Of a DNA stretch of 41,441 bases, positions 1 to 41,441 are shown one piece after another; position 1 is the first letter of the stretch, and each line of letters opens with the position of its first letter. Origin of the DNA: a virus; the IMG/VR virus record IMGVR_UViG_3300029341_000010; one strand, 5' to 3'. The notes beneath the pieces were generated by a model that saw only the letters and a list, made by a program, of their open reading frames with translations, was not told where the DNA came from and did not search any database. The position numbers and the translations under genes were made by a program.

Positions 1-123
1 CGGCGTTGATGACCCCGGCAAGGTAAAGTCAATCAAAGTGCCGTTTGGTTATATCGGCATCTGCTGGTTTGAAGAACTAGACCAGTTTGACGGTGAAGAG
101 CAAATCCGAAATGTGGAGCAGTC
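1..123. repeat. Terminal direct repeat, copy 1 (identical to 41319-41441); closure overlap of a circular or circularly permuted genome
   Basis: Bases 1-123 match 41319-41441 letter for letter when read directly. The unit length is therefore 41318 bp. Confidence 0.97.
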
Positions 124-943
124 GTGCTTGCGCGGCGGTGACTGGTTCATCACGTTCAAGAGCTTCAACCCGCCCGCAATGGCGCGGAACTGGGCGAACG
201 GCTACGCGCTGAAAGCCCGCGAAGGCAAGCTGGTACATCATTCCACCTACAAAACAACGCCCGCAGAATGGCTCGGAGAGCGGTTCCTGGCCGATGCTGA
301 ATACTTGGAGCGCACAAACGAAACAGCATACCGGCATGAGTATCTTGGCGAGGTTGTCGGCAGTGGCACGGCAGTGTTCGAGAATCTGCGCATTGAGAAA
401 ATAACCGATGAACAGATTGCCAGCTTTGACCGCATCAAGCGCGGCGTGGACTGGGGCTGGTACCCTGACCCTTGGGCATACAATGCTATGCACTATGACG
501 CGGCACGGCGAACACTGTACATCTTTGATGAAATGACACGGCGCAGAACCAGCAACAGGGATACTGCACAGCTGCTTTTGGATAGAGGGCTGACGCGCGA
601 GGACAAAGTCTGCGCGGATAGTGCTGAGCCGAAATCCATTGCGGACTACAACAAGTACGGCGTGAAAACATTCCCTGCCCGTAAAGGGCCGAAATCGGTT
701 CGATACGGCACAAAGTGGCTGCAAATGCTAAAAGCGATTGTCATTGATCCAGAACGATGCCCGGACACAGCAAAGGAATTCAGCGAGTACGAGTACGAGC
801 GAGACAGCAAGACGGGGGAAGTGCTGGAAGGCTACCCGGATTTGAACAACCATCACATTGACGCAGTGCGTTATGGGATGGAAAGCACAGCGAACAAAGC
901 CGGAGACAATACGGCAATGAAGTATCAAAGCATTTACAGATAG
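2..943 (+). CDS. terL: Terminase large subunit, C-terminal part (5' end lies at 41011-41441 across the circular junction)
   Basis: The frame is open from base 2 and is continuous with 41011-41441 once 41318 is subtracted. Walker B-like ICWFEELD and nuclease-type C-terminus HHIDAVRY are present. The gene follows terS and precedes portal. Confidence 0.9.
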   Translation, partial: GVDDPGKVKSIKVPFGYIGICWFEELDQFDGEEQIRNVEQSCLRGGDWFITFKSFNPPAMARNWANGYALKAREGKLVHHSTYKTTPAEWLGERFLADAEYLERTNETAYRHEYLGEVVGSGTAVFENLRIEKITDEQIASFDRIKRGVDWGWYPDPWAYNAMHYDAARRTLYIFDEMTRRRTSNRDTAQLLLDRGLTREDKVCADSAEPKSIADYNKYGVKTFPARKGPKSVRYGTKWLQMLKAIVIDPERCPDTAKEFSEYEYERDSKTGEVLEGYPDLNNHHIDAVRYGMESTANKAGDNTAMKYQSIYR

Positions 944-4858: not shown

Positions 4859-5857
4859 ATGGCAGATACTATCCTTACAAAACTGGCAGACCTGATTAAC
4901 CCCGAAGTTATGGCCGATATGATTTCGGCAAAGATTCCTGACAAAATCCGCGTGGCGCCTTTTGCAAAGGTGGATGACACCCTTGCTGGCGTGCCCGGCG
5001 ATACCATTACTGTGCCGTCTTACGGTTACATTGGCGACGCAGAGGACGTTGCAGAAGGCGTCGACGTTGACATCAACAAGATGAGCACCAAGGACAAGAA
5101 GTACAAGATCAAGAAGGCCATGAAGGGCGTTGGCCTGACCGATGAAGCTGTTCTGTCCGGCTACGGCAACCCCGTGGGCGAGGCCAATGCGCAGCTGGCG
5201 CTGTCTATTGCTGCCAAAATCGACAACGACTGCATGGAAGCCTTGCAGGGCGCCACGCTGGTGTATGACGGCACTGCTTCCGCTATCAAGTACAGCGGCG
5301 TTGTGGACGCTATCGACGTGTTCAATGAGGAGATCAACAGCGACAAGGTGATGTTCATCAACCCCAAGCAGATGGCAACCCTGCGCAAGGATGCTGATTT
5401 TATCAGCGCTGACAAGTATCAGGCTGGCGTTGCTGTCACCGGCGAAATCGGCAAGATTGCCAACACCCGCGTTGTAGCATCCCGCAAGGTTCCTTCTATC
5501 GAGTATGAGAAGGACAACAGCACCGGCACCATTGAGATTGTCGCTGATACTACCGCCGAAACCTCCACCAAAAAGCATCTGGCGACCATCCAGCCGCATT
5601 GCGCTGCTGCTTTGATTGTCGGCGATAAGGTCAAGGCTGCTGCTACCGCCTATTACGCTTGCCCCATCGTCAAGCTGAACGAGGACAGCGAGACTGAGGA
5701 CGATGTGCCCGCCCTGACCATCTACCGCAAGCGCAATATCAACGTGGAGACCGAGCGCAAGCCGCGTAACCGCTCCACCGAGATCACCGCTGACGAGTTT
5801 TACGTTGCGGCGCTGACCAATGAAGCCAAAGTCGTGCTGGCAAAGTTCAAAAAGTAA
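4859..5857 (+). CDS. Major capsid protein
   Basis: A 332-aa ORF after the scaffold gene. The N-terminus MADTILTKLADLINPEVMADMI... and the size fit HK97-fold capsid proteins of Firmicutes siphoviruses. Confidence 0.85.
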   Translation: MADTILTKLADLINPEVMADMISAKIPDKIRVAPFAKVDDTLAGVPGDTITVPSYGYIGDAEDVAEGVDVDINKMSTKDKKYKIKKAMKGVGLTDEAVLSGYGNPVGEANAQLALSIAAKIDNDCMEALQGATLVYDGTASAIKYSGVVDAIDVFNEEINSDKVMFINPKQMATLRKDADFISADKYQAGVAVTGEIGKIANTRVVASRKVPSIEYEKDNSTGTIEIVADTTAETSTKKHLATIQPHCAAALIVGDKVKAAATAYYACPIVKLNEDSETEDDVPALTIYRKRNINVETERKPRNRSTEITADEFYVAALTNEAKVVLAKFKK

Positions 5858-8292: not shown

Positions 8293-10542
8293 GTGGACGT
8301 ATTTGACCTTTTTGCAAAAATCACGCTGGATTCCAGCGAATATGAAAAGGCGCTGAAAAGAACAAAGGCCGAATCGCAAGCGTTTGTCAGCGGGTCTTAT
8401 GCAAAAGGCTTTGAAAAAGTTGCCGGTACAGTTATGAAGATCGGCACAGCGCTGGCGGGCGCCGGTACTGCTGCCGCTGGTTTTGCAATAAAAGTAGGCT
8501 CTGGCTTTGAATCTGCCATGTCGCAAACGCAGGCTATTTTTGGTATTACTGACAAGATGTCAGACGAATACAAGAAGCTGGAAGATACTGCCCGCGAATA
8601 CGGCAAAACCACGCAGTACAGCGCAAGCGAATCTGCTGACGCGCTGAAATATATGGCTTTGGCCGGGTGGGATGTAGAGCAAGCAACCTCTGCGCTGCCC
8701 GGCGTGCTGAACCTTGCGGCTGCGGCCAGCATGGATTTGGCGCAGGCATCTGACATGGTAACGGATTACATGTCGGCGTTTGGCATTGAAGCTGACCAAT
8801 CTGCATATTTTGCAGACGTTCTGGCTTATGCACAGAATAACGCAAACACGACAGTTGACCAATTGGGGCAGGCGTTTCAAAACTGCGCGGCGAACATGAA
8901 TGCGTCCGGGCAGGACTTTGAAACCACCACCGCGCTGCTGGAAGCTATGGCGAACCAGGGCACGAAGGGCAGCCTTGCAGGCACGCAGCTGGCCGCTATG
9001 ATGCGCGACCTGACCGCCAAAATGAAAAACGGCGCAATCACGATTGGCAACACCAGCATTGCGGTGCAGGATTCAAACGGCAATTTCCGCGACATGACGG
9101 ATATTTTGACTGAAGTTGCCACTGCTACAGACGGCATGGGCGATGCACAGCGTGCTACGGCGTTAAGCTCTGTATTTACGGCTGATTCTTTGAAGGGCGT
9201 CAACCTGATTTTGAATGAAGGCGTTGACAAAGTTGCCCAATATGAAGAAGAACTACGCAATGCCAACGGCACGGCAGCGGATGCGGCAAAAATCAATAAC
9301 GACAACCTTGCAGGCGCTTTAAAAGAATTAAGCTCTGCGGCTGAAGAAGTGGGTATTGCGGTATACAAAAAATTCCAGGAACCGCTGACAAAAGCCGTTG
9401 ATAAGGTTACGGAAATTGTACAGAATGTCAACATTGACGACCTTATCGAAAAAGGCAAAAACATGCTTGACACGCTGGCAAAGATTGCCCCCGCTATTGC
9501 TGCCATTGTAAGCGCGGCAACCGGGCTTTATGGCATGATTAAAATTGCCGACAAGTTAAAAGACTTTGGCGAAATGGCTGTGGCAATCAGCAAGGCAGGC
9601 GGGCTTATCGCTTCTATTGGCGGCCCTATTGCTATTGTAGTTGCCGCTATCGCGGCGCTGGTTGCAGGATTTGCTACGCTATACGCTACAAATGAAAATT
9701 TCAGAAACGGCGTTAATGCAGCATTGGATGCGATTTCTGCCAAGATTCAGGAAGTCGTGGCATTTGTACAGCCTTATGTTGAAGCGGCTATGCAGGTTAT
9801 CGGGCAGGTTGTTACGCAGGTCATTACAGATTTGACCCCGGTCATACAGAGCATCGGTGAAGCGTTCAGCGCTGCATGGAGCCTTGTACAGACTGTATGG
9901 GCATGGGCAAGTGCATTCTTTCAGGCTATCTTCCAGGCAATTGTGGTTATCTTTGCGCCGTTTGCACCGATTATCAGCGGATTCTTCCAGGGCGCGTGGA
10001 TCATCATTCAAAGCATCTGGAATGTTGCGGTAAGCTTTTTCCAGACTGTGTTTAATTTGATTACCGGCGTGTTCTCTACGATTGACGCTGTGTTGTCTGG
10101 TGACTTTCAGGGCGCGTGGGAGTCGATTCAGGGCATCTTTGAAGGTGCGTTTGACTTTTTCTCAACGGTCGGTCAAAACGTTGTAGAGGGCATCAAGGGT
10201 GGCATTGCGGCTGTTTGGGGCGGTCTTGTCAGCTTCGTGCAGGGCTTGTGGGATGGCATCAAGAGCATTTTTGTCATCAATGCAAGTGATGTAAAAAACA
10301 ACACGGGCGTTAATGGCAGCCATGCAGGCGGCATGGATTATGTCCCCTATAACAACTACGTTGCAAATCTGCATCGCGGTGAGATGGTGCTGACAGCCGA
10401 TGAAGCGGACAACTACAGACGCGGTAAGGGCAGCAGCAACGGCTTTAACCTGACGCAAAATATTTACGCGGCAAAGCAGACGCCGGTTGAACTGGCAGCA
10501 AGTACAGCAGCGTATTTTCAGCGGGCGAGGTGGGCGATATGA
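8293..10542 (+). CDS. Tail tape measure protein
   Basis: A 749-aa ORF with a GTG start 8 nt after AGGTGA. It contains the TP901-type core (YGKTTQYSASESADALKYMALAGW...LNLAAAASMDLAQASDMVTDYMSAFG) and hydrophobic helical repeats. Confidence 0.92.
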   Translation: MDVFDLFAKITLDSSEYEKALKRTKAESQAFVSGSYAKGFEKVAGTVMKIGTALAGAGTAAAGFAIKVGSGFESAMSQTQAIFGITDKMSDEYKKLEDTAREYGKTTQYSASESADALKYMALAGWDVEQATSALPGVLNLAAAASMDLAQASDMVTDYMSAFGIEADQSAYFADVLAYAQNNANTTVDQLGQAFQNCAANMNASGQDFETTTALLEAMANQGTKGSLAGTQLAAMMRDLTAKMKNGAITIGNTSIAVQDSNGNFRDMTDILTEVATATDGMGDAQRATALSSVFTADSLKGVNLILNEGVDKVAQYEEELRNANGTAADAAKINNDNLAGALKELSSAAEEVGIAVYKKFQEPLTKAVDKVTEIVQNVNIDDLIEKGKNMLDTLAKIAPAIAAIVSAATGLYGMIKIADKLKDFGEMAVAISKAGGLIASIGGPIAIVVAAIAALVAGFATLYATNENFRNGVNAALDAISAKIQEVVAFVQPYVEAAMQVIGQVVTQVITDLTPVIQSIGEAFSAAWSLVQTVWAWASAFFQAIFQAIVVIFAPFAPIISGFFQGAWIIIQSIWNVAVSFFQTVFNLITGVFSTIDAVLSGDFQGAWESIQGIFEGAFDFFSTVGQNVVEGIKGGIAAVWGGLVSFVQGLWDGIKSIFVINASDVKNNTGVNGSHAGGMDYVPYNNYVANLHRGEMVLTADEADNYRRGKGSSNGFNLTQNIYAAKQTPVELAASTAAYFQRARWAI

Positions 10543-23224: not shown

Positions 23225-23247
23225 AGTGTGTACTTTTAGTGTGTACT
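23225..23247 (+). repeat. Two direct copies of AGTGTGTACT (candidate arm-type sites, right of core; overlap the int stop)
   Basis: Copies lie at 23225-23234 and 23238-23247, in the same orientation as the left pair. Confidence 0.6.
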
Positions 23248-24312
23248 TTTTAGCACATCCTTAAATGTTTCGTCAATCGCAGAGGCTATTTTTTCGGCCT
23301 GGCCGTTGACTGCGTGGCCGTACACGCCAAATGTATCCATATTTTTGCTGTGCCCAACAATCTGTTTGAGCTGCCCTTCCGGGAGTGCGCTTGCAATCGA
23401 TACAAACGTGTGTCGAAGCTCGTAAAGAGAAACATAATTTATTCCGTTGTAATCGCAATACTTTCTCCACCATTTATAGAGCAAGTGCTCATCTGAGATG
23501 CCAAAAACACTTTTACCATTTTTTGTAAGTTCGCGTTGCGCATCTATTACGCTTTTAGCCATGTCGGACAATTCAATTGCTCTAACCGCATTGTCATTTT
23601 TACCTGTTGTTTTTTCTCCATAAATGTTGATCGCACGCCGCAGAAAAATTCTGTTTTCTTTCACATCTTCCCACTGCATGCCAATCAACTCACCCGGTCG
23701 AATCCCGGTCAGAACAGCAAGGCGGTATGCGTTGATATAAGGGTCTTTGGCTTCCTTGCCCATGTACTTGGTTTTGTCGCTTGACAATAAAATTGCTAAA
23801 TCGTCTGGCTGCAATATTTTCTTTTGCGGCTTTGGAGTTCCAGCGGGAATGTTCAAGTTATCTGGTACAAACGTTGTATAGCCTGAATTGCGTGCAAACC
23901 GAAAAAACGATGTGATGTCTCCATAGATATTTTGAAGCGTTTTACGGCTTTTTCCAGCGGCTTTGGCGTTGTCTAAAACTGTTTGCACTTGCTGCTGCGT
24001 CAACGATTCCAACCGCCGGTGCCCAATTTCCGGCTGAATCCATATGCGCCAGCGGCTTTCCTTTGGTCTAAAATTGCTTATGCCTGATATTTTTGATTCT
24101 CTCGCAAGGTATTCTTTATATGCGCTCTCGACCGTTTTTCCGCGCGTTTGCAAGCCGTTTTCTAGCCAGTCATCTGCTTTTTTGTTGGCTTCCCGCTGGC
24201 CTGTGCGCCCCGGCTTGGCGCTGGTAAAGGTTTTGCGCACGCCGTCTTTCTGCACGTTTATCTGCCAGCGCTGGGCAGATTCAATCCATTTTGCGGTATT
24301 TGTTCTTTTCAT
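23236..24312 (-). CDS. int: Tyrosine integrase
   Basis: A 358-aa product with an N-terminal SAM-like domain. Catalytic-domain motifs are LTGIRPGEL (Arg), ELRHTFVS (H-x-x-R) and GHS...VYGH (Tyr). Confidence 0.92.
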   Translation of the reverse strand: MKRTNTAKWIESAQRWQINVQKDGVRKTFTSAKPGRTGQREANKKADDWLENGLQTRGKTVESAYKEYLARESKISGISNFRPKESRWRIWIQPEIGHRRLESLTQQQVQTVLDNAKAAGKSRKTLQNIYGDITSFFRFARNSGYTTFVPDNLNIPAGTPKPQKKILQPDDLAILLSSDKTKYMGKEAKDPYINAYRLAVLTGIRPGELIGMQWEDVKENRIFLRRAINIYGEKTTGKNDNAVRAIELSDMAKSVIDAQRELTKNGKSVFGISDEHLLYKWWRKYCDYNGINYVSLYELRHTFVSIASALPEGQLKQIVGHSKNMDTFGVYGHAVNGQAEKIASAIDETFKDVLKSTH

Positions 24313-33529: not shown

Positions 33530-34315
33530 ATGGCAAACGAGGGTTACATAAAGCTGTACCGCCGCATGATGAAGTGGGGCTGGTATACCGATACCCCCAC
33601 AAAATGCGTGTTTCTGCACCTTCTGTTTCTGGCTTGCTATGAGCCGTGCTATTTCAAAGGCGTTCACCTGGAACCCGGTCAAGCCGTTTCCTCTATCCGC
33701 CAAATTGCCACCGACACCGGATTAACAGTCAAACAAGTTCGGACTGCAATAAACCACCTAAAAGAGACACAGGAAGTGGCACAGTCACCGTGTGGAAAAT
33801 TTAGCGTATTCACGGTAAATAACTACAACGACTATCAATGCACGGGCACAGACGAGGGCAAACAGATGGCACAGAGAGGGCACAGTGAGGGCACAGACCC
33901 TAATATAAAGAAGAATAAAGAAGTTAAGAATACCCCCTATACCCCCCAAGGGGATGACGCGGATTCCCCTGCTTTCACCAAGTTCTGGGCAGCTTACCCA
34001 AAGAAGGTCGGCAAGGCAGATGCCCGTAAAAAATTTGAAAAGCTTGTGCCGGATGAATCAACCCTGTCCGCCATCCTGTCCAGCCTTGAGTACCTCAAGA
34101 CCACTGACCAGTGGCAGCGTGAGAATGGCAAGTACATTCCATACCCGTCTACATGGTTGAATCAAAAGCGCTGGCAGGATGAAGCATCCAAGCCGCCTAC
34201 TACTGTCCGCTCTACTGATAACCTGCGGCCTGTGTTTGACCGTGAGTACACGTTTGAAGAACGGATGAATGGAGTTGTCCCGAAAATCGTGGGATGGGAG
34301 GAGGCGAAAGCATGA
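33530..34315 (+). CDS. Replication initiator / replisome organizer
   Basis: The N-terminal winged-helix region is GYIKLYRRMMKWGWY...GQAVSSIRQIATDTGLTVKQVRTAINHLKE. The C-terminus carries the FWAAYPKKVGKADARKKFEKL motif. The gene lies directly upstream of the helicase. Confidence 0.7.
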   Translation: MANEGYIKLYRRMMKWGWYTDTPTKCVFLHLLFLACYEPCYFKGVHLEPGQAVSSIRQIATDTGLTVKQVRTAINHLKETQEVAQSPCGKFSVFTVNNYNDYQCTGTDEGKQMAQRGHSEGTDPNIKKNKEVKNTPYTPQGDDADSPAFTKFWAAYPKKVGKADARKKFEKLVPDESTLSAILSSLEYLKTTDQWQRENGKYIPYPSTWLNQKRWQDEASKPPTTVRSTDNLRPVFDREYTFEERMNGVVPKIVGWEEAKA

Positions 34316-35568
34316 ATACCATCGTAGCGGAAAAAGCTGTTATCGGCATTATGCTTATGAAACCGGAATTGCAGGACGATGCTTTTTCTTCCCTGACCTA
34401 CAAAATGTTTGAGCTGAAAGCGCTCGGGAATATCTTTCTGCTTTGCAAGGATATGGCCGATAAAGGCCAGAGGGCTGATACGGTATCGGTTATTTCCAAA
34501 TGCGATGACGACACAAAAGTGCTCGCCATGCAGTGCTTTGAAACGGTTCCATCCATATCCGGCTACAACACCTATATCAACTGCGTTATGGACGGATGGA
34601 GAAAGCGTGAGTTGACAGCGGCATTAACAAAGCTGCTGACCGATGATGGTGATGCCGATGAAATGAGCGCTGCGCTGTTCCACATTGCGGAGCGCCAGCA
34701 GTACATCATGGCCCACCAGAAGGAGCGCAGCGCAAAAGATTTTGCCGATGGCATTGATGCGTTCCTCTCCTGGATGAAAAAACCAAGCGACAGTATCCAG
34801 ACCGGGTTTGGCAGCCTGGACACCATGACTGGCGGGCTTGCCCGCAATGGCGTTACCGTAATTGCTGCCCGCCCTGGCAAGGGCAAATCTACGCTGGCTT
34901 TGCAGATGGCCTGCCAGATCTCCCAAAACGCGCTGACGCTGTATCAATCCATGGAGATGAGCCGCGAACAGCTTTATACCGCCATCTTCTCACGCTGGGC
35001 ACAGATAGACAGCACCCGCATCACAAACCATCGCCTGACGCCGGAGGAAGAATCCGCCATCCGGGAGGCAGCAGATCACCTGAAAAGCAAGTACCGCCTG
35101 ATTCTTGATGATTCCAGCCTGACAAGCCTTGCCGATGTAGAAACCACGATCAAAGAGCGCAAGCCGGAAGTAGTCGTTATTGACCATCTGGGCCTTGTTG
35201 CACCGCCAAACGCTAAAGAAAAGCGTAACGACGAGCTGGCAGCCCTCACACGTGGTTTAAAGCAGCTTGCCATGAAATATCATATCTGCATTATCGAGCT
35301 CGTACAGGCCGCGAGAGCCGCCGATACGGGCATGATTAAAATGTCGGACATGTTCGGCTCCGCGACTATCGAGCATGATGCAGATATGATAATCGCTATC
35401 AACCCCGGCATGTACACTAAAGACCGGGAAACGCAAGAAATCAACCCGCCCACCGATGGGGACACCGTGATAGAGGTAGTAAAAAACCGGCACGGTGCCT
35501 GCGGCCAACTGGATTTTGTGTGGGTAAAACCATTTCATCTATTTTGTGAGGTATCAAAACATGAGTGA
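34312..35568 (+). CDS. DnaB-type replicative helicase
   Basis: ATGA overlap after GGAGGAGG. The N-terminus is AEKAVIGIML, the Walker A motif is AARPGKGKSTLAL, and the Walker B-type segment is VVVIDHLGL. Confidence 0.9.
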   Translation: MNTIVAEKAVIGIMLMKPELQDDAFSSLTYKMFELKALGNIFLLCKDMADKGQRADTVSVISKCDDDTKVLAMQCFETVPSISGYNTYINCVMDGWRKRELTAALTKLLTDDGDADEMSAALFHIAERQQYIMAHQKERSAKDFADGIDAFLSWMKKPSDSIQTGFGSLDTMTGGLARNGVTVIAARPGKGKSTLALQMACQISQNALTLYQSMEMSREQLYTAIFSRWAQIDSTRITNHRLTPEEESAIREAADHLKSKYRLILDDSSLTSLADVETTIKERKPEVVVIDHLGLVAPPNAKEKRNDELAALTRGLKQLAMKYHICIIELVQAARAADTGMIKMSDMFGSATIEHDADMIIAINPGMYTKDRETQEINPPTDGDTVIEVVKNRHGACGQLDFVWVKPFHLFCEVSKHE

Positions 35569-37880: not shown

Positions 37881-38065
37881 CAAAACAGCAACTAGTTGAT
37901 GAATACGCCCGCGAGCATCTTTGCGCGACATGCGAGTGGAAGAATGGCAATATTTGCACGTTGCCGCGCTGCATGAAAGTGGAAGAAAGGAGATACAATG
38001 ACCCGAGAAGAATTCAACCAAAAGAAAACGTGGCTATGGAGATACCAACGCAGCAGGAATTATGA
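37877..38065 (+). CDS. Small Cys-containing protein (62 aa)
   Basis: ATGA overlap after GGAGGTG. It overlaps the next gene by 68 nt, so its 3' end is questionable. Confidence 0.4.
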   Translation: MTKQQLVDEYAREHLCATCEWKNGNICTLPRCMKVEERRYNDPRRIQPKENVAMEIPTQQEL

Positions 38066-38429
38066 ACGGCAGCTGCGCCAGCAGATACAGAGCGAACGTG
38101 AACGGGCAACAGCGACCACGAAAGCATTGTCCCCCGTTGTGGTATCTGCTGGCGGTAAAAATAAAATCGAGGATGCTGTTTGCAGAATCATGGAGCGTCA
38201 AGAAGCTCTATACAAGCAGATTATTGACACTGAGATGCAAAGGGAAGAAATCGAAACAGCAATAAACTCTGTTCAAGACCAAATGCAGCGGGACGTTCTG
38301 CGGGAGCGGTATATTGTCGGAACCCCGTATTGGTGGAAAATTGCGATAAATCTAAATATTTCCGAGCGATGGGCAAAGAAATTACACCGCGCTGCAATTG
38401 AAAATCTGTGCACTCCAGTTCACTTTTAA
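37998..38429 (+). CDS. Sigma-70 region-4-like late transcription activator (ArpU/RinA-position)
   Basis: ATG after GAAAGGAG. The C-terminus is RDVLRERYIVGTPYWWKIAINLNISERWAKKLHRAAIENL. It is the last early gene before the packaging module. Confidence 0.7.
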   Translation: MTREEFNQKKTWLWRYQRSRNYERQLRQQIQSERERATATTKALSPVVVSAGGKNKIEDAVCRIMERQEALYKQIIDTEMQREEIETAINSVQDQMQRDVLRERYIVGTPYWWKIAINLNISERWAKKLHRAAIENLCTPVHF

Positions 38430-38780
38430 CCTGCTATTATAGATATGCTGGATGATGTAGGAACGGGACAGCCTACTGCATTGCTAAAACCTCTTTTCTT
38501 TATTGTTCCAATTCTCCTATTCTCATAGCTGGCAGCCGGGAAAGACCGGCATTTTATATGCTACATAGCCGATTCTATTTGTAAAGAATAAGGGCACCGC
38601 GTTCCGAAGCAACGGCGCGGCAAAGGTGCAAGACCTGTGTGTAGTACCAACGCCGATGACTCTGGCTATATACCCGGCAGGTACGCTTGACCGGGGTTAC
38701 CCGTCAGGTACGCTTGCCGGGGTAGCCAGATAGGCAACCCCCGCAAGCCTACTGACAGTGCGTAACATGCGGGGCCTTGT

Positions 38781-38854
38781 GCGGGCGTAGTTCAATGCAG
38801 AACGGCGGTCTCCAAAACCGCAAGATGAGGGGTCAAGACCTTCCACCCGTGCCA
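38781..38854 (+). tRNA. tRNA-Trp (anticodon CCA), CCA end encoded
   Basis: A manual cloverleaf fold. The acceptor stem is GCGGGCG/CACCCGT (1 mismatch, 1 G-U pair) and the D-stem is GTTC/GAAC. The anticodon stem GCGGT/ACCGC carries the loop CTCCAAA, and the T-arm is GAGGG-GTCAAGA-CCTTC. The total is 74 nt. The D-loop and T54 are atypical. Confidence 0.6.
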
Positions 38855-38942
38855 GACGGCAGGGTCGCAACCTGTCTGTGTGAGAGTGTGCGGTATACCT
38901 CACAAATGATGACAATGGTCGTGCAAACGGCAAGCCGCACAT

Positions 38943-39000
38943 GCCCTTGTAGCTCAATGGCAAGAGCCTTGGTGTGCCGGTTCAAGTCCGGCTGAGGGCA
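38943..39000 (+). ncRNA. tRNA-like element lacking the anticodon arm (58 nt)
   Basis: The acceptor stem is GCCCTTG/TGAGGGC, the D-arm is GCTC-AATGGCAA-GAGC, and the T-arm GCCGG-TTCAAGT-CCGGC is canonical. Only 8 nt (CTTGGTGT) sit where the anticodon stem-loop plus variable loop should be. Confidence 0.5.
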
Positions 39001-39360
39001 CGTGCTGGGTCGCTCCCACCGGTGAAAGCCCGGCGCAGGCAAAACGCGATAGATAACCTGAACGCTGTAAGCAAAGCGGCAAGCCGATCAGGAGCGCGGC
39101 GCGATGGCAGGTCGCAACGGGACTTCGAGAGCCTGAAAAAATCTGCCCCACATCTGCTTGCGCGGACGCTGTTACTGACACCGTTGCGCGTTGTGGCCCT
39201 CCTTTTAATCAAAGCAGAAACCGCGACCAGCGGACGGGATATAAATAACGCTGGATTACGTTGCAGGTGTGCAGCTGCAACGGGCGAGACCGGCATAGCA
39301 GAGACCGGTAGGGCGGGAACGCGCTTTTCCTCCGGCGCAAAGGGGTTTTGGGGGATATAA

Positions 39361-39392
39361 GCCTACACAAATTGTGTTGGCTTTTTGTTTTG
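39361..39392 (+). terminator. Rho-independent terminator at the end of the non-coding tract
   Basis: GCCTACACA-AAT-TGTGTTGGC (9 bp, one mismatch) followed by TTTTTGTTTTG. Confidence 0.65.
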
Positions 39393-39408
39393 CATAAAGG
39401 AGGATATT

Positions 39409-40569
39409 ATGCAAATTGTGATGAAATCGCTGGGAGAAATTCACCCATACGAAAACAACGCAAAAAAGCACGATGCAAGGCAAATCAAAAATGTTGCCGA
39501 AAGCATCAAGCAATATGGGTTTGTGCAGCCGGTTGTTGTGGACAAAAACAACATTATTGTGATTGGGCATTGCCGCGCATTGGCTGCAAAAAAGCTGGGA
39601 ATCAAAGAAGTACCGTGCGTCTGTGTGGACGATTTGACACCAGAGCAGGTGAATGCCCTCCGGCTTGTGGATAACAAAAGCAATGAGAGTGACTGGGACT
39701 TCGACCTGCTGAAAGATGAACTGCCGGAGCTGGATTTGTCGGCGTTTGATTTTGATTGGGGACTCCCAGAAGAAGCGACAGAAGAAGTTGTAGAAGACGA
39801 TGCGCCGGAGGTGGATGAGGAATCCGAGCCAATAACAAAAAAAGGTGACATTTGGCAGCTTGGCAGACACAGGCTTATGTGCGGCGACAGCACAAAAAGC
39901 GATGATGTAAGCGCTCTTATGGGGGGGCGTCTTGCAGACATGTTGCTCACAGACCCGCCTTACGGGGTTGACTATACTGGGAAAACCAAGGACGCGCTTA
40001 AAATCGAAAACGATGCAAAAAGCGACGATGAGTTTATTGCGTTTTTGCAATCTGCGTTTTCGTCTGCTGATTCTGTGATGAAGCCGGGGGCTGTATTCTA
40101 CATCTGGCACGCCATTCTAAAGACATACGCCTTTGAATCGGCGTGCCAGATGGCGGGATGGGAAGTCCGGCAGGTTCTTATTTGGGTAAAAAATGCAATG
40201 GTAATGGGCAGGCAGGACTACCAATGGAAGCATGAGCCGTGCCTTTACGGATGGAAGTCTGGTGCTGGTCATTTGTGGGCGTCAGACCGAAAGCAAACAA
40301 CCGTGCTGGAATTTGACCGTCCAACAAAAAATAAAGAGCATCCAACAATGAAACCTGTGGCGCTTTTCGATTATCAAATCAAAAACAACACTAAAGGCGG
40401 TGACGCCGTGCTTGATTTGTTTGCTGGCAGCGGGACGACGGTTATTGCGTGTGAGCAAAACGGTCGGGATGCGTATGCAATGGAGTTCGACCCAAGATAC
40501 TGTGATGTGATTGTAAAGCGATGGGAAACCCTGACGGGGAATAGGGCGGTGCTGTTAAATGACAATTAA
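39409..40569 (+). CDS. ParB-like nuclease domain fused to a DNA methyltransferase (N6-A/N4-C, beta class)
   Basis: ATG after AAGGAGG. The ParB-type N-terminus is IHPYENNAKKH...VIGHCRALAAKKLG. Motif IV is LLTDPPYGVDY and the AdoMet motif is DLFAGSGTTVIACEQ. Confidence 0.9.
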   Translation: MQIVMKSLGEIHPYENNAKKHDARQIKNVAESIKQYGFVQPVVVDKNNIIVIGHCRALAAKKLGIKEVPCVCVDDLTPEQVNALRLVDNKSNESDWDFDLLKDELPELDLSAFDFDWGLPEEATEEVVEDDAPEVDEESEPITKKGDIWQLGRHRLMCGDSTKSDDVSALMGGRLADMLLTDPPYGVDYTGKTKDALKIENDAKSDDEFIAFLQSAFSSADSVMKPGAVFYIWHAILKTYAFESACQMAGWEVRQVLIWVKNAMVMGRQDYQWKHEPCLYGWKSGAGHLWASDRKQTTVLEFDRPTKNKEHPTMKPVALFDYQIKNNTKGGDAVLDLFAGSGTTVIACEQNGRDAYAMEFDPRYCDVIVKRWETLTGNRAVLLNDN

Positions 40570-40664: not shown

Positions 40665-40997
40665 ATGGCAAAAACAGGACGCCCGAGAAAAGAGATCGAT
40701 CAAAACCACTTTGAAAACCTATGCGGGTTACAGTGTACAAAAGAAGATATATGCGATTTCTTTGGCGTAACAGACAAAACGATTGATGCGTGGTGCAAAA
40801 GGACATACAAGGATAGTTTTTCCGTAGTTTTTAAGCAAAAGCGAGGAAAGGGAAAATGCTCTCTGCGTCGGTATCAATTTGCACTCGCCCAAAAAAACGC
40901 AAATATGGCAATTTGGCTCGGCAAACAGTATTTGGGGCAGAAAGACGAGCCTGAACAACAGACAGACAGCGGGGTGCAAATCATAGATGACCTGTAA
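40665..40997 (+). CDS. terS: Terminase small subunit
   Basis: A 110-aa product after AAAAGGAGG. The N-terminal HTH is GRPRKEIDQNHFENLCGLQCTKEDICDFFGVTDKTIDAW, and MAIWLGKQYLGQKD is also present. The gene lies immediately upstream of terL. Confidence 0.85.
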   Translation: MAKTGRPRKEIDQNHFENLCGLQCTKEDICDFFGVTDKTIDAWCKRTYKDSFSVVFKQKRGKGKCSLRRYQFALAQKNANMAIWLGKQYLGQKDEPEQQTDSGVQIIDDL

Positions 40998-41010
40998 CAG
41001 ATTATCGGCT

Positions 41011-41441
41011 ATGGTCTCCCCATGCTTTGCTGAAGCGCACCGGCAAATCAAGGCAGGCAACGTGAAAGAACTGCTTGCGAAAGGTGGGCGCGGCTCTACC
41101 AAATCCAGCTATATCAGCATAGAGCTGATTTTACAACTGCTAAAGCATCCGCAATGCCACGCGGCGGTTTTCCGCAAGGTCGGAAACACACTGCGCACAA
41201 GCGTGTATGCGCAAATCGTTTGGGCTATCAATGAGCTTGGATTGCACGACCATTTTCGCTGCACGGTTTCCCCTATGGAATGCACCTATTTGCCTACTGG
41301 GCAAAAGGTGCTTTTTTTCGGCGTTGATGACCCCGGCAAGGTAAAGTCAATCAAAGTGCCGTTTGGTTATATCGGCATCTGCTGGTTTGAAGAACTAGAC
41401 CAGTTTGACGGTGAAGAGCAAATCCGAAATGTGGAGCAGTC
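41011..41441 (+). CDS. terL: Terminase large subunit, N-terminal part (3' end continues at base 2 after the circular junction)
   Basis: This is the first ATG after the in-frame TAA at 40996. The Walker A-like motif is KGGRGSTKSS. The last 123 nt duplicate the start of the window. Confidence 0.9.
   Translation, partial: MVSPCFAEAHRQIKAGNVKELLAKGGRGSTKSSYISIELILQLLKHPQCHAAVFRKVGNTLRTSVYAQIVWAINELGLHDHFRCTVSPMECTYLPTGQKVLFFGVDDPGKVKSIKVPFGYIGICWFEELDQFDGEEQIRNVEQ
41319..41441. repeat. Terminal direct repeat, copy 2 (identical to 1-123)
   Basis: Direct reading of both ends of the window. Confidence 0.97.

What the first reader, a model, noticed from the sequence alone, without database searches (positions are those of the whole stretch)
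38430..39395. 965-nt ORF-free, helix-rich tract with embedded tRNA elements: candidate large ornate ncRNA (GOLLD/ROOL-like?)
Elsewhere in this genome most gaps between adjacent genes are under 100 nt. Here, 965 nt separate the late-activator stop (38429) from the methyltransferase RBS. The only ORFs are overlapping Arg/Ala/Gly/Cys-rich strings on both strands.

Several structures can be read directly from the sequence:
- Nested helices GCAC-CGCG...CGCGG-CAAAG-GTGC at about 38594-38629.
- Two tandem hairpins 27 nt apart with identical 12-nt loops CAGGTACGCTTG (38678-38689 and 38705-38716).
- A CCCCGC/GCGGGG pairing (38739-38744 with 38769-38774).
- A repeated GGCAGGGTCGCAAC / GGCAGGTCGCAAC (38858-38871 and 39106-39118).
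- A perfect 8-bp hairpin CGTTGCAG/CTGCAACG (39259-39282).
- A duplicated GAGACCGG (39286 and 39301).
- A terminal intrinsic terminator (39361-39392).

A tRNA-Trp and an anticodon-less tRNA-like element sit inside the tract. Very large structured RNAs of unknown function (GOLLD, ROOL) have been reported in prophages of Firmicutes, typically next to tRNA genes. This locus fits that context, but I cannot verify membership by eye. If it matches neither class, it would be a new large phage RNA.
Basis: partly seen in the sequence, partly recalled or inferred. Interest (0 to 1): 0.85.

Follow-up and report, generated by a model that had tools for sequence, protein, structure and literature searches.

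The report
Phage cassette of tRNA-like RNAs
The 965-base gene-free stretch is not one giant ornate RNA but a portable string of small RNA genes in a gut phage: one real tRNA, two tRNA look-alikes that cannot decode, several conserved hairpins, the already catalogued D12-methyl RNA motif and a terminator.

Summary
The tract is non-coding and GC-rich (about 0.60, against 0.45-0.50 in the flanks).

The interpretation as a GOLLD/ROOL-like large RNA is not supported.
- Rfam finds no GOLLD or ROOL match, even at E<=10.
- Rfam does find the known D12-methyl motif (39259-39321, 73 bits), tRNA-Trp (38781-38854) and a tRNA-like element without an anticodon arm (38943-39000).
- In about 200 related gut viral contigs the tract is a modular cassette of 125 to about 1375 nt. 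Its parts are inserted, lost or swapped independently.
- The roughly 200 nt that carry the tandem hairpins and tRNA-Trp are absent from most relatives.
- Compensatory changes support only local hairpins, plus one 76-121-nt closing helix.

That closing helix defines a previously unnoticed tRNA-like RNA, TL-A (38559-38648). It has a 7-bp acceptor stem, a T-like arm and an ACCA end.

The cassette sits in at least three genomic contexts. D12-methyl precedes ParB-methylase, D12 methylase, small terminase or portal genes, so here it is not specific to methylase genes.

Most likely the tract is a polycistronic small-RNA unit punctuated by tRNA-type processing sites. I rate it a new variant of a known kind, of moderate interest.

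The parts
38535..38558 (+). Terminator-like hairpin GCCGGGAAAGACCGGC followed by the leader ATTTTATAT. It ends the DUF1492 gene region and forms the AU-rich 5' leader of TL-A.
   Evidence: Terminator scan. The arrangement 'hairpin + TTTTATAT|G' is conserved upstream of TL-A in all contexts, although the hairpin itself differs. The same leader precedes other tRNA-like elements in relatives.
38559..38648 (+). TL-A, a newly recognised tRNA-like RNA of 90 nt. Acceptor 5' strand GCUACAU is at 38559-38565 and acceptor 3' strand GUGUAGU at 38638-38644. The discriminator A is at 38645 and CCA at 38646-38648. The T-like arm is AAAGG-UGCAAGA-CCUGU (38621-38637). There is no canonical anticodon loop.
   Evidence: Acceptor-stem haplotypes covary across 76-121 nt: GCTGCAT/GTGCAGT, ACCGTAT/ATACGGA, GCCGCAT/GTGCGGC, ACCGTAT/GTGCGGT and GCTACAT/GTGTAGT (the window). 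The central hairpin keeps pairing through G-C to G-U and A-U changes. Neither ARAGORN nor the Rfam tRNA model calls it.
38649..38780 (+). Leader of the optional cargo module. It contains the two tandem hairpins with identical CAGGTACGCTTG loops (38670-38726) and the CCCCGC...GCGGGG hairpin (38739-38774).
   Evidence: Present in only about 12% of 57 relatives. Most join 38648 directly to 38848 with GTNCCA microhomology. A related leader precedes the tRNA-like element in other relatives.
38781..38854 (+). tRNA-Trp (anticodon CCA) with an encoded CCA end. It is variable cargo.
   Evidence: ARAGORN and Rfam tRNA at 50 bits. Relatives carry Trp, Thr(TGT/CGT), Gly, an odd 85-nt 'His-ATG' tRNA or no tRNA at this place.
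38855..38942 (+). Segment B, a spacer with three hairpins that includes GGCAGGGTCGCAAC. An unrelated leader replaces it in some relatives.
   Evidence: Compensatory pairs occur in the hairpin at 38922-38932.
38943..39000 (+). TL-C, a 58-nt tRNA-like RNA. It has a 7-bp acceptor stem, a D arm, a T arm and discriminator A, with 4 nt in place of the anticodon arm and no encoded CCA. It is a derivative of a tRNA-Thr(UGU) gene.
   Evidence: Rfam tRNA model 40.9 bits, with the anticodon arm missing. It shares its upstream flank and position with intact tRNA-Thr genes of relatives. A 44-mer is identical in 66 viral contigs. The few changes keep the fold: D stem CG to AU in 2 sequences, and wobble changes in the T and acceptor stems.
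39001..39062 (+). D1, a nearly invariant element: GGG-UCGCU-CCC, the T-loop-like hairpin CCGG-UGAAAGC-CCGG, and CAGG...CCUG. It always follows a tRNA or tRNA-like 3' end directly.
   Evidence: 98% identity while its neighbours vary. A 22-mer is exact in 113 viral contigs, always in the order A..D..E..F. It is preceded by a real tRNA or by independent tRNA-like elements in different relatives. There is a weak Rfam hit to group-II-D1D4-4, 25.7 bits against a gathering score of 49.
39063..39151 (+). D2, a hairpin module that includes GGCAGGTCGCAAC. It exists in two alternative versions and is absent in some relatives.
   Evidence: Compensatory pairs GC to AU (9 sequences) and CG to GC (9 sequences).
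39152..39258 (+). E, containing the covarying hairpin 39165-39185 and ending in the box GGGATATAAATA (39236-39247).
   Evidence: Four base pairs have both sides changed in 5-11 of 47 sequences. The box is duplicated, together with a 47-nt hairpin insert, in many relatives. GGGATATAA occurs only twice in the 41-kb window, both times here, against 0.1 expected.
39259..39321 (+). D12-methyl RNA motif (Rfam RF02950): P1 CGUUGCAG/CUGCAACG, P2 ACCGG/CCGGU, and the tail AGGGCGGGAACG.
   Evidence: 73.2 bits against a gathering score of 57, E = 1.6e-11, with the alignment. Eleven relatives score 83-95 bits. P1 changes GC to AU, and P2 changes ACCGG/CCGGT to GTCGG/CCGAC to CCCGG/CCGGG.
39322..39395 (+). 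G. It holds the small hairpin GCGC-loop-GCGC, G-tracts, the second GGGATATAA box (39352-39360) and an intrinsic terminator (stem 39359-39382, then a T-run to 39392). It ends 5 nt before the ribosome-binding site GGAGG (39398-39402) of the methylase, whose ATG is at 39409.
   Evidence: The terminator stem covaries (ACAC/GUGU to CAUG/CAUG) while the rest of G is invariant. G is absent where the cassette lies between terL and portal.

Best explanation
The tract is a self-contained, horizontally portable cassette of small RNA genes on the + strand of a temperate gut siphovirus. It is not one large RNA.

Its order in the window is:
1. An AU-rich leader.
2. TL-A, a 90-nt tRNA mimic with an acceptor stem, a T-like arm and an ACCA end.
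3. An optional cargo module that carries tRNA-Trp.
4. The hairpin spacer B.
5. TL-C, a tRNA-Thr derivative that has lost its anticodon arm but keeps the acceptor, D and T arms.
6. The conserved elements D1, D2 and E.
7. The D12-methyl motif.
8. An intrinsic terminator, directly before the ribosome-binding site of the ParB-methylase gene.

Inferred mechanism. The cassette is transcribed as one precursor, or a few. The tRNA and the two tRNA mimics act as punctuation for the host tRNA-processing enzymes. RNase P would cut at the 5' side of the 7-bp acceptor stems. RNase Z, or 3' trimming, would cut after the discriminator. This would release stable small RNAs. In particular, D1's 5' end would always be made by tRNA-type 3' processing.

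Inferred roles. The real tRNA supplies decoding capacity or replaces host tRNAs. The mimics cannot decode. They serve as processing signals and possibly as tRNA decoys. The D12-methyl element plus the terminator closes the unit and insulates or gates the packaging genes downstream.

What is shown: the composition, the modularity, the portability and the local or tRNA-like folds. What is inferred: the transcription unit, the processing and the biological roles.
For: Known parts are found by covariance models and ARAGORN.

Modularity:
- The distance from A to D12-methyl ranges from 125 to 1255 nt.
- The tRNA content between them varies: Thr 39+2, Trp 13, odd 'His' 10, Gly 1.
- About 140 distinct cassettes span roughly 250 to 1375 nt.
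- The tRNA-Trp module is an indel.
- D2 and B exist in alternative versions.

Portability. The same ordered cassette lies in three places:
- After a DUF1492 regulator.
- After an unrelated 129-aa protein.
- Between terL and portal.

Genes downstream of D12-methyl:
- ParB-N6_N4 methylase.
- ParB_N-only proteins.
- D12 methylase.
- GP3_package small terminase.
- A PLD-like protein.
- An SPP1-type portal.

tRNA-like folds:
- The TL-A acceptor stem has five covarying haplotypes, a T-like arm and an NCCA end.
- TL-C is positionally homologous to tRNA-Thr and keeps its pairing.
- D1 is always directly 3' of a tRNA or of one of several independently derived tRNA-like elements.

Strand. G-U and U-G pairs are common in the supported helices, for example 40/47 and 45/47 sequences and pairs 1-72 and 7-66 of TL-A. 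These would be A-C mismatches on the other strand.

Terminator. The terminator stem covaries, and it is missing exactly where the cassette sits inside the terL-portal operon.
Against: - There are no expression data. No sigma-70-like promoter was found on the + strand, so the transcription start or starts are unknown.
- A terminator-like hairpin lies just upstream of TL-A. The terminator at the 3' end leaves no room for a separate promoter for the methylase gene, so read-through or an internal start must be assumed.
- All relatives are fairly close (mostly 70-98% identity), so covariation rests on few independent events. D1 is invariant, so its structure is untested.
- TL-C could still be a recent pseudogene carried along in a conserved block.
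- One relative (L203) has only a degraded remnant before D1.
Confidence: 0.7

Rival explanations
1. The whole tract folds into a single large ornate non-coding RNA, either a GOLLD/ROOL relative or a new class, with the tRNA elements embedded in it.
For: The tract is about 800 nt, GC-rich, hairpin-rich and non-coding, and lies next to tRNAs in a prophage, which matches the usual GOLLD/ROOL context (PMC5737381). The order A..D..E..F is conserved in about 200 contigs and moves as a unit. RNAalifold proposes a 13-bp helix between D1 (39004-39017) and 39283-39299.
Against: - No GOLLD or ROOL hit, even at E<=10.
- Modules are lost, swapped or inserted among close relatives, and some cassettes are only A plus D12-methyl.
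- The proposed long-range helices have zero compensatory changes. The D1:F helix clashes with P2 of D12-methyl, which does covary.
- The MFE z-score is only about -2 on both strands.
Confidence: 0.05
2. The tract is mainly a cis-acting 5' leader of the late (packaging) operon. D12-methyl and the terminator would form an attenuator, or a processive-antitermination or late-promoter element controlled by the upstream DUF1492 activator. The tRNAs would be passengers.
For: - It lies between the late-activator-type gene (phrog_36/248) and the first packaging genes.
- The terminator ends 5 nt before the ribosome-binding site.
- D12-methyl precedes whichever gene opens the packaging module.
- Two identical GGGATATAA boxes flank D12-methyl. 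The second sits at the foot of the terminator.
Against: - The same cassette also sits between terL and portal and after an unrelated gene.
- No antiterminator partner is evident. The terminator stem covaries while the rest of G is invariant.
- Methylase relatives without the cassette lack the box.
- This reading does not explain the selection that keeps the TL-A, TL-C and D1 folds.
Confidence: 0.2
3. The tract is a decaying tRNA gene cluster. Only tRNA-Trp would be functional. TL-A, TL-C and the hairpin segments would be pseudogenes and spacers kept by recent common ancestry.
For: TL-C is clearly a deletion derivative of tRNA-Thr. One relative shows a degraded remnant at the same place. The relatives are closely related, and the modules turn over quickly.
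Against: - TL-C and D1 are far more conserved (98-99%) than the adjacent segments (45-85%) in the same genomes.
- Substitutions in TL-A, TL-C, E and D2 are compensatory or wobble-preserving.
- Anticodon-defective tRNA-like elements of independent origin occupy the same position before D1.
Confidence: 0.1
4. The conserved elements act at the DNA level, as a pac/cos site, a recombination hotspot or an attachment site next to the packaging genes.
For: The cassette is always in or next to the packaging module. Module junctions show microhomology. The fold z-score is similar on both strands.
Against: The many G-U wobble pairs in the supported helices would be A-C mismatches on the opposite strand or in DNA cruciforms. 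The parts are recognised by RNA covariance models on the + strand only. The integrase and its site lie elsewhere in the window, with the integrase gene at 23236-24312.
Confidence: 0.04
5. The tract hides a protein-coding gene, for example the 128-aa Arg-rich ORF at 38974-39360.
For: Stop-free stretches of 84-187 codons exist in all relatives.
Against: - The homologous DNA is split over 2-3 frames in 43 of 63 relatives, and the strand of the longest ORF is inconsistent.
- Indels are not multiples of three.
- Gene callers call nothing there in 7 of 8 public contigs.
- The ORF overlaps tRNA-model and D12-methyl hits.
Confidence: 0.01

Closest known systems
D12-methyl RNA motif (Rfam RF02950; Weinberg et al. 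2017, PMC5737381)
   Same: Positions 39259-39321 match the full 64-position model above the gathering score, with both hairpins and the AGGGCGGGAACG tail. A DNA methylase gene follows.
   Different: Here, and in about 200 relatives, the motif is the 3' end of a longer cassette of tRNA and tRNA-like RNAs. An intrinsic terminator usually follows it. The next gene is often not a D12-class methylase: it can be an N6_N4 methylase, a ParB_N-only protein, small terminase or portal. The published name and the cis-regulatory idea (the latter recalled from memory) therefore cover only part of the picture.
Phage tRNA gene clusters with co-processed stable RNAs of unknown function (for example the phage T4 tRNA region with species I/II RNAs, rnaC/rnaD; recalled from memory, not checked here)
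   Same: This is a head-to-tail array of tRNAs together with small stable-looking RNAs that have acceptor-like stems and CCA-type ends. It lies in a phage, is presumably cut from a common precursor, and its tRNA cargo varies.
   Different: There is no sequence relationship. The host group and the phage type (a temperate siphovirus of gut Clostridia) are different. The mimics here lack decoding arms, and the array ends in D12-methyl.
tRNA-like modules used as RNase P / CCA-enzyme substrates (bacterial Y RNAs such as YrlA, PMC4201824; MALAT1 mascRNA, from memory)
   Same: Acceptor stem plus T arm, with or without a D arm, and without a working anticodon arm. A 7-bp acceptor stem is the feature reported to allow RNase P cleavage.
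   Different: No Rfam Y-RNA hit. No Ro60/Rsr gene was seen near the tract, although this was not searched exhaustively. In TL-A and TL-C the RNA's own 5' and 3' ends form the acceptor stem, as in a tRNA.
GOLLD and ROOL large ornate RNAs
   Same: Prophage context, neighbouring tRNAs, several hundred non-coding nucleotides (PMC5737381).
   Different: No covariance-model match, no conserved global architecture and freely exchangeable modules.
Group II intron domain 1-4 fragments (Rfam group-II-D1D4-4)
   Same: A weak full-length alignment to D1+D2 at 39016-39122, E = 0.0018 in a 1.2-kb search, sharing GGUGAAAG.CC and GCAGGYCGYAACG.
   Different: The score of 25.7 is far below the gathering score of 49. 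No domain V/VI (Intron_gpII) hit, no intron boundaries and no reverse transcriptase. D2 is replaceable.

Membership tests
D12-methyl RNA (RF02950) | Score at or above the Rfam gathering threshold over the full model | tested here: met
   73.2 bits against 57, model positions 1-64 of 64. Relatives score 83-95 bits.
D12-methyl RNA (RF02950) | Two hairpins (P1, P2) supported by covariation, plus the conserved 3' tail AGGGCGGGAACG | tested here: met
   P1 changes GC to AU. P2 changes ACCGG/CCGGT to GTCGG/CCGAC to CCCGG/CCGGG. The tail is invariant.
D12-methyl RNA (RF02950) | Located upstream of a D12-class N6-adenine DNA methyltransferase gene | tested here: inconclusive
   The window's gene is ParB_N + N6_N4_Mtase (PF01555), not PF02086. 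Some relatives have PF02086, while others have small terminase, ParB_N-only, PLD-like or portal genes.
GOLLD / ROOL | Match to the family covariance model | tested here: not met
   Neither family appears among the hits at E<=10 with permissive filters on 38300-39500, nor at gathering score on the whole window.
GOLLD / ROOL | A conserved multi-domain architecture shared by all members | tested here: not met
   Cassette length ranges from 125 to about 1375 nt with module presence or absence and swaps. There is no covariation in long-range helices other than the TL-A acceptor stem.
GOLLD / ROOL | Prophage and tRNA-adjacent context | tested here: met
   Temperate siphovirus with an integrase, and tRNA-Trp inside the tract. 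This feature is not specific to the family.
tRNA (canonical) | Cloverleaf with a 7-nt anticodon loop, for 38781-38854 | tested here: met
   ARAGORN calls tRNA-Trp with anticodon CCA. Rfam scores 50 bits.
tRNA (canonical) | Anticodon stem-loop present, for TL-C 38943-39000 | tested here: not met
   The Rfam alignment shows 4 nt where 18 model positions are expected. ARAGORN does not call it. I therefore file it as tRNA-like, not as a tRNA.
tRNA (canonical) | Detected by tRNA models and carrying an anticodon loop, for TL-A 38559-38648 | tested here: not met
   No ARAGORN or Rfam tRNA hit. The central hairpin has a loop of 6-11 nt without U33. The acceptor stem, the T-like arm and the NCCA end are present.
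tmRNA | tRNA-like ends enclosing a tag reading frame | tested here: not met
   ARAGORN finds no tmRNA. TL-A is only 68-121 nt.
Bacterial Y RNA (YrlA-like) | Model match, and a neighbouring Ro60/Rsr gene | tested here: not met
   No Rfam hit at E<=10. The annotated neighbours are a regulator, a methylase and terminase. The whole window's proteins were not screened for Ro60.
Group II intron | Domain V/VI catalytic core and intron boundaries | tested here: not met
   Only a sub-threshold D1-D4 fragment hit. No Intron_gpII hit.

The most novel reading that the evidence does not exclude
The cassette encodes a family of phage tRNA mimics: acceptor/T-arm RNAs with CCA-type ends that cannot decode. 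They are co-expressed with the invariant D1 RNA and with D12-methyl.

The phage would use them actively rather than as mere punctuation. They could act as decoys or inhibitors for host tRNA-targeting immunity or toxins that recognise the acceptor/T region. Alternatively they could capture tRNA-processing, CCA-adding or aminoacylation enzymes.

D12-methyl would then be the 3' member of this small-RNA operon rather than a methylase riboswitch.
Probability: 0.2. Interest if true: 0.7.

Novelty: new variant of a known kind. Interest (0 to 1): 0.45.

Why it matters
The finding corrects an attractive but wrong reading as a new giant RNA. It also adds context to an orphan Rfam motif. In this very common group of human-gut phages, the upstream regulator protein occurs as exact copies in 1045 sample blocks. 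Here D12-methyl is the last element of a portable cassette of tRNAs and non-decoding tRNA mimics, and it precedes packaging genes of several kinds, not only methylases.

The recurrent, independently derived tRNA look-alikes without a working anticodon are kept under structural selection and are always placed just before the invariant D1 element. They give a concrete and testable handle on two questions: how phages use tRNA shape for RNA processing, and possibly how they use it against tRNA-directed host defences.

Tried and rejected
- INPHARED phage genomes, blastn with the tract: no match. The nearest isolate, Flavonifractor phage Chenonceau, lacks the cassette.
- Genome-contig scan with the 18-mer ACCGGNAGGGCGGGAACG: 120 hits. 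I inspected five of them, including the three from Clostridia-type MAGs. They are chance matches in GC-rich DNA with no P1/P2 upstream, and none of the genome loci matched the D12-methyl segment model. No host was obtained this way.
- Idea that the A hairpin and the F-tail/G hairpin are diverged copies, like terminal repeats: the local alignment is not significant, p = 0.07 against shuffles. I dropped it.
- Idea that A (CGCGUUCC) pairs with the F tail (GGAACGCG): both sides are invariant, no covariation is possible, and the distance is variable and interrupted by tRNAs. I did not pursue it.
- D1:F 13-bp helix from RNAalifold: no compensatory change, and it conflicts with P2. Rejected.
- GCAACGG recurrence: 3 copies in the tract against 12 in the whole window. 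This is only a mild enrichment in a GC-rich tract.
- Sigma-70 promoter scan: nothing on the + strand.
- Supplement of Weinberg 2017, for the original D12-methyl description: not held.
- More distant methylase relatives (60-80% aa identity): no D12-methyl, though often a tRNA upstream.
- I did not use the metagenome scan, protein structure prediction or custom covariance models, judging that they would not change the verdict.
Full report
**1. The observation**

The tract 38430-39395 lies between a DUF1492-family regulator gene (37998-38429; PHROG 'transcriptional regulator/activator') and a ParB_N + N6_N4 DNA methylase gene (ATG at 39409). GC content is about 0.60, against 0.45-0.50 in the flanks.

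The window is a complete temperate siphovirus genome, circularly permuted:
- terL is split over the two ends of the window.
- Portal is at 978-2363.
- The major head protein is at 4859-5857.
- The tape measure protein is at 8293-10542.
- The integrase is at 23236-24312, on the - strand.
- A DnaB-type helicase is at 34294-35568.
- terS is at 40665-40997.

Its portal is 68% identical to that of Flavonifractor phage Chenonceau. The regulator protein occurs as exact copies in 1045 sample blocks of public assemblies, so this is a very common gut phage group.

**2. What models of known RNAs find**

Rfam at gathering thresholds reports three things in the tract:
- The D12-methyl RNA motif at 39259-39321 (73.2 bits against a gathering score of 57).
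- A tRNA at 38781-38851.
- A second tRNA-model hit at 38943-39000, in which 4 nt replace the anticodon arm.

ARAGORN calls only tRNA-Trp(CCA), at 38781-38854, and finds no tmRNA.

With E<=10 and permissive filters on 38300-39500, neither GOLLD, ROOL nor any other large-RNA family appears. The only other notable hit is a sub-threshold match of 39016-39122 to group-II-D1D4-4 (25.7 bits against 49), with no domain V/VI hit.

**3. Relatives show a modular cassette, not one RNA**

INPHARED has no match. IMG/VR does:
- 66 contigs hold an exact 44-mer of the tRNA-like element.
- 101 stretches hold an 18-mer of D12-methyl.
- 113 hold a 22-mer of segment D1.

I divided the tract into segments:

| Segment | Window coordinates | Content |
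|---|---|---|
| A | 38589-38648 | Central hairpin, T-like arm and 3' end of TL-A |
| insert | 38649-38847 | Cargo leader and tRNA-Trp |
| B | 38848-38942 | Hairpin spacer |
| C | 38943-39000 | TL-C |
| D | 39001-39151 | D1 and D2 |
| E | 39152-39258 | Covarying hairpin and GGGATATAA box |
| F | 39259-39321 | D12-methyl |
| G | 39322-39395 | Second box and terminator |

I then searched with profile HMMs of these segments.

- Most relatives join 38648 directly to 38848. The roughly 200 nt with the tandem hairpins and tRNA-Trp are therefore an optional module, present in about 12% of 57 relatives.
- The distance from A to F ranges from 125 nt (A followed almost directly by F in L187, L196 and L210) to 1255 nt.
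- About 140 distinct cassettes span roughly 250 to 1375 nt.
- Between A and F, relatives carry different real tRNAs or none: Thr-TGT 39, Thr-CGT 2, Trp 13, an odd 85-nt 'His-ATG' 10, Gly 1.
- D splits into a nearly invariant D1 (39001-39062) and a D2 that exists in two alternative versions or is absent. B is likewise replaceable.
- Indels are 10, 13, 14, 17, 24, 30 and 47 nt.
- The longest window ORF in the tract stays in one frame in only 25 of 63 relatives.

**4. Portability**

The order A..D..E..F is always kept, but the cassette sits in at least three places:
- After the DUF1492 gene.
- After an unrelated 129-aa protein (phrog_11237, unknown function).
- Between terL (phrog_38, E = 2.9e-56) and an SPP1-type portal gene, in 31 loci. 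There a tRNA-Met lies further upstream and segment G is absent.

The gene after D12-methyl also varies. It can be ParB-N6_N4 methylase, ParB_N only, a D12-class methylase, GP3_package small terminase, a PLD-like protein or portal.

More distant methylase relatives (60-80% aa identity) have no D12-methyl, but often have a tRNA at the same site.

So in this phage group D12-methyl is tied to the cassette, not to methylase genes.

**5. Structure tests**

RNAalifold on 63 and on 47 cassette sequences (alignment A1) gives compensatory, both-sides changes only in local helices:
- The A hairpin.
- A B hairpin.
- The D, T and acceptor stems of the tRNA-like element.
- Two D2 hairpins (9 sequences each).
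- The E hairpin at 39165-39185 (four pairs, 5-11 sequences each).
- P1 of D12-methyl.
- The terminator stem.

P2 of D12-methyl shows ACCGG/CCGGT, GTCGG/CCGAC and CCCGG/CCGGG.

The predicted long-range helices have no compensatory change. These are D1 39004-39017 with 39283-39299, and the 5' end of A with G. The first of them clashes with P2.

The MFE z-score of the 807-nt core is about -2 on both strands.

This rules out a conserved global fold as far as the present data can tell.

**6.

Upstream of A, all contexts share the box TTTTATAT|GCTGCATAGCC behind a context-specific hairpin. The seven bases after the bar pair with the seven bases before the terminal NCCA of A. The haplotypes are:

| 5' strand / 3' strand | Loci |
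|---|---|
| GCTGCAT / GTGCAGT | about 90 |
| ACCGTAT / ATACGGA | 39 |
| GCCGCAT / GTGCGGC | 9 |
| ACCGTAT / GTGCGGT | 5 |
| GCTACAT / GTGTAGT | the window and L180 |

These are compensatory changes at pairs 1-72, 3-70, 4-69 and 5-68, across 76-121 nt.

Just before the 3' strand lies a T-like arm, AAAGG-UGCAAGA-CCUGU (CCUAU in most relatives). The centre is the covarying A hairpin. Longer versions carry an extra arm at the D-arm position.

In the window TL-A spans 38559-38648 and ends in ACCA. It has no canonical anticodon loop, and tRNA finders do not call it.

**7. The element without an anticodon arm (TL-C)**

TL-C shares its position and its upstream flank (ccgcacatgc) with intact tRNA-Thr(UGU) genes of relatives. 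It differs by about 14 nt missing from the anticodon stem-loop and by having no encoded CCA.

It is 99% conserved while the neighbouring segments are 45-85% conserved. Its rare substitutions keep the pairing: D stem CG to AU, and wobble changes in the T and acceptor stems.

**8. D1 always follows a tRNA-shaped element**

Depending on the relative, D1 is directly preceded by one of the following:
- TL-C.
- A real tRNA-Thr or tRNA-Trp ending in CCA.
- The 85-nt odd tRNA.
- A different tRNA-like element that also lacks an anticodon arm (L174, L197).
- A tRNA-like element whose anticodon arm ends in a tetraloop (L172).

One relative (L203) has only a degraded remnant.

Each tRNA-shaped element is itself preceded by a hairpin followed by a (T)TTTATAT-type leader (TTTTATAT in several relatives).

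The recurrence of independently derived, non-decoding tRNA shapes at this one position argues that the shape is what is selected. The most economical reason is recognition by RNase P and RNase Z. [quoted passage not shown]

**9. The 3' end**

After D12-methyl comes an invariant stretch and then an intrinsic terminator. The terminator stem covaries. I see no alternative pairing partner that covaries with it, so a classical terminator/antiterminator riboswitch is unlikely. The terminator ends 5 nt before the methylase ribosome-binding site.

GGGATATAA occurs exactly twice in the 41-kb window, against 0.1 expected. One copy is 15 nt before P1 (39236-39244). The other is at the foot of the terminator (39352-39360). 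Relatives carry further copies upstream of F.

These boxes may be promoter -10-like elements. In that case the second would start transcription inside the terminator's 5' arm and so escape it. They may instead be AU-rich RNase sites. I could not test either idea.

**10. Verdict**

The reading as one large ornate RNA, GOLLD/ROOL-like, is not supported.

What is there is a portable cassette of small RNA genes:
- A tRNA mimic (TL-A).
- Optional tRNA cargo.
- A tRNA-Thr derivative without an anticodon arm (TL-C).
- Conserved hairpin elements of unknown function (D1, D2, E).
- The known D12-methyl motif.
- A terminator.

It most likely works as a polycistronic precursor punctuated by tRNA-type processing. 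That step is an inference.

The closest known things are three:
- The Rfam D12-methyl family. The 63-nt part is a member, although the gene-context criterion is only partly met.
- Phage tRNA clusters that include extra stable RNAs, such as T4 species I/II. This is recalled from memory.
- tRNA-like processing modules, such as Y RNAs.

I rate it a new variant of a known kind, with moderate interest (0.45).

Noticed in passing
window 39236-39244 and 39352-39360: GGGATATAA occurs only twice in the 41-kb window, against 0.1 expected. Both copies are on the + strand and flank the D12-methyl motif, and the second lies at the 5' foot of the terminator. It may be a promoter-like or RNase-site box.
   Followed up: partly
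window 39310-39353: There are four G-tracts, GGG-C-GGG ... GGGG-UUUU-GGGGG. A small GCGC/GCGC hairpin sits in the long middle loop, and the tracts are highly conserved in relatives that have segment G. They could form an RNA G-quadruplex. The tracts are incomplete in cassettes without G.
   Followed up: no
L222 2926-3008: A twister-sister ribozyme (Rfam RF02681, 84.9 bits against a gathering score of 34) lies elsewhere in a related viral contig that carries the cassette between terL and portal.
   Followed up: no
L201 3170-3253 (- strand); also L178, L147, L154, L182: An 85-nt tRNA with a long extra arm lies directly before D1 in ten relatives. ARAGORN reads it as 'tRNA-His, anticodon ATG', and Rfam scores it at only 39-43 bits. 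It is an unusual, possibly non-canonical tRNA.
   Followed up: no
window 1-943 and about 41000-41441: The large terminase gene is split across the two ends of the window. The window is therefore a circularly permuted, essentially complete phage genome of about 41.4 kb.
   Followed up: partly
window 39016-39122: There is a sub-threshold but full-length Rfam alignment to group-II-D1D4-4 (25.7 bits, E = 0.0018 in a 1.2-kb search). It shares GGUGAAAG.CC and GCAGGYCGYAACG. No other intron features are present.
   Followed up: partly
L135 (D12 methylase downstream of the motif): The D12-class methylase in this relative contains a run of SLESLERLQ-type peptide repeats in its middle.
   Followed up: no
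window 38585-38558 (- strand): The only sigma-70-like promoter match in 37900-39600 is on the - strand, pointing away from the cassette. It lies inside what is now assigned to TL-A and is probably a chance match.
   Followed up: no
L152 (about 360 nt between the DUF1492 gene and D12-methyl): At least one relative has D12-methyl plus the terminator with no detectable A, B, C, D or E segments. The motif can therefore exist without the rest of the cassette.
   Followed up: partly
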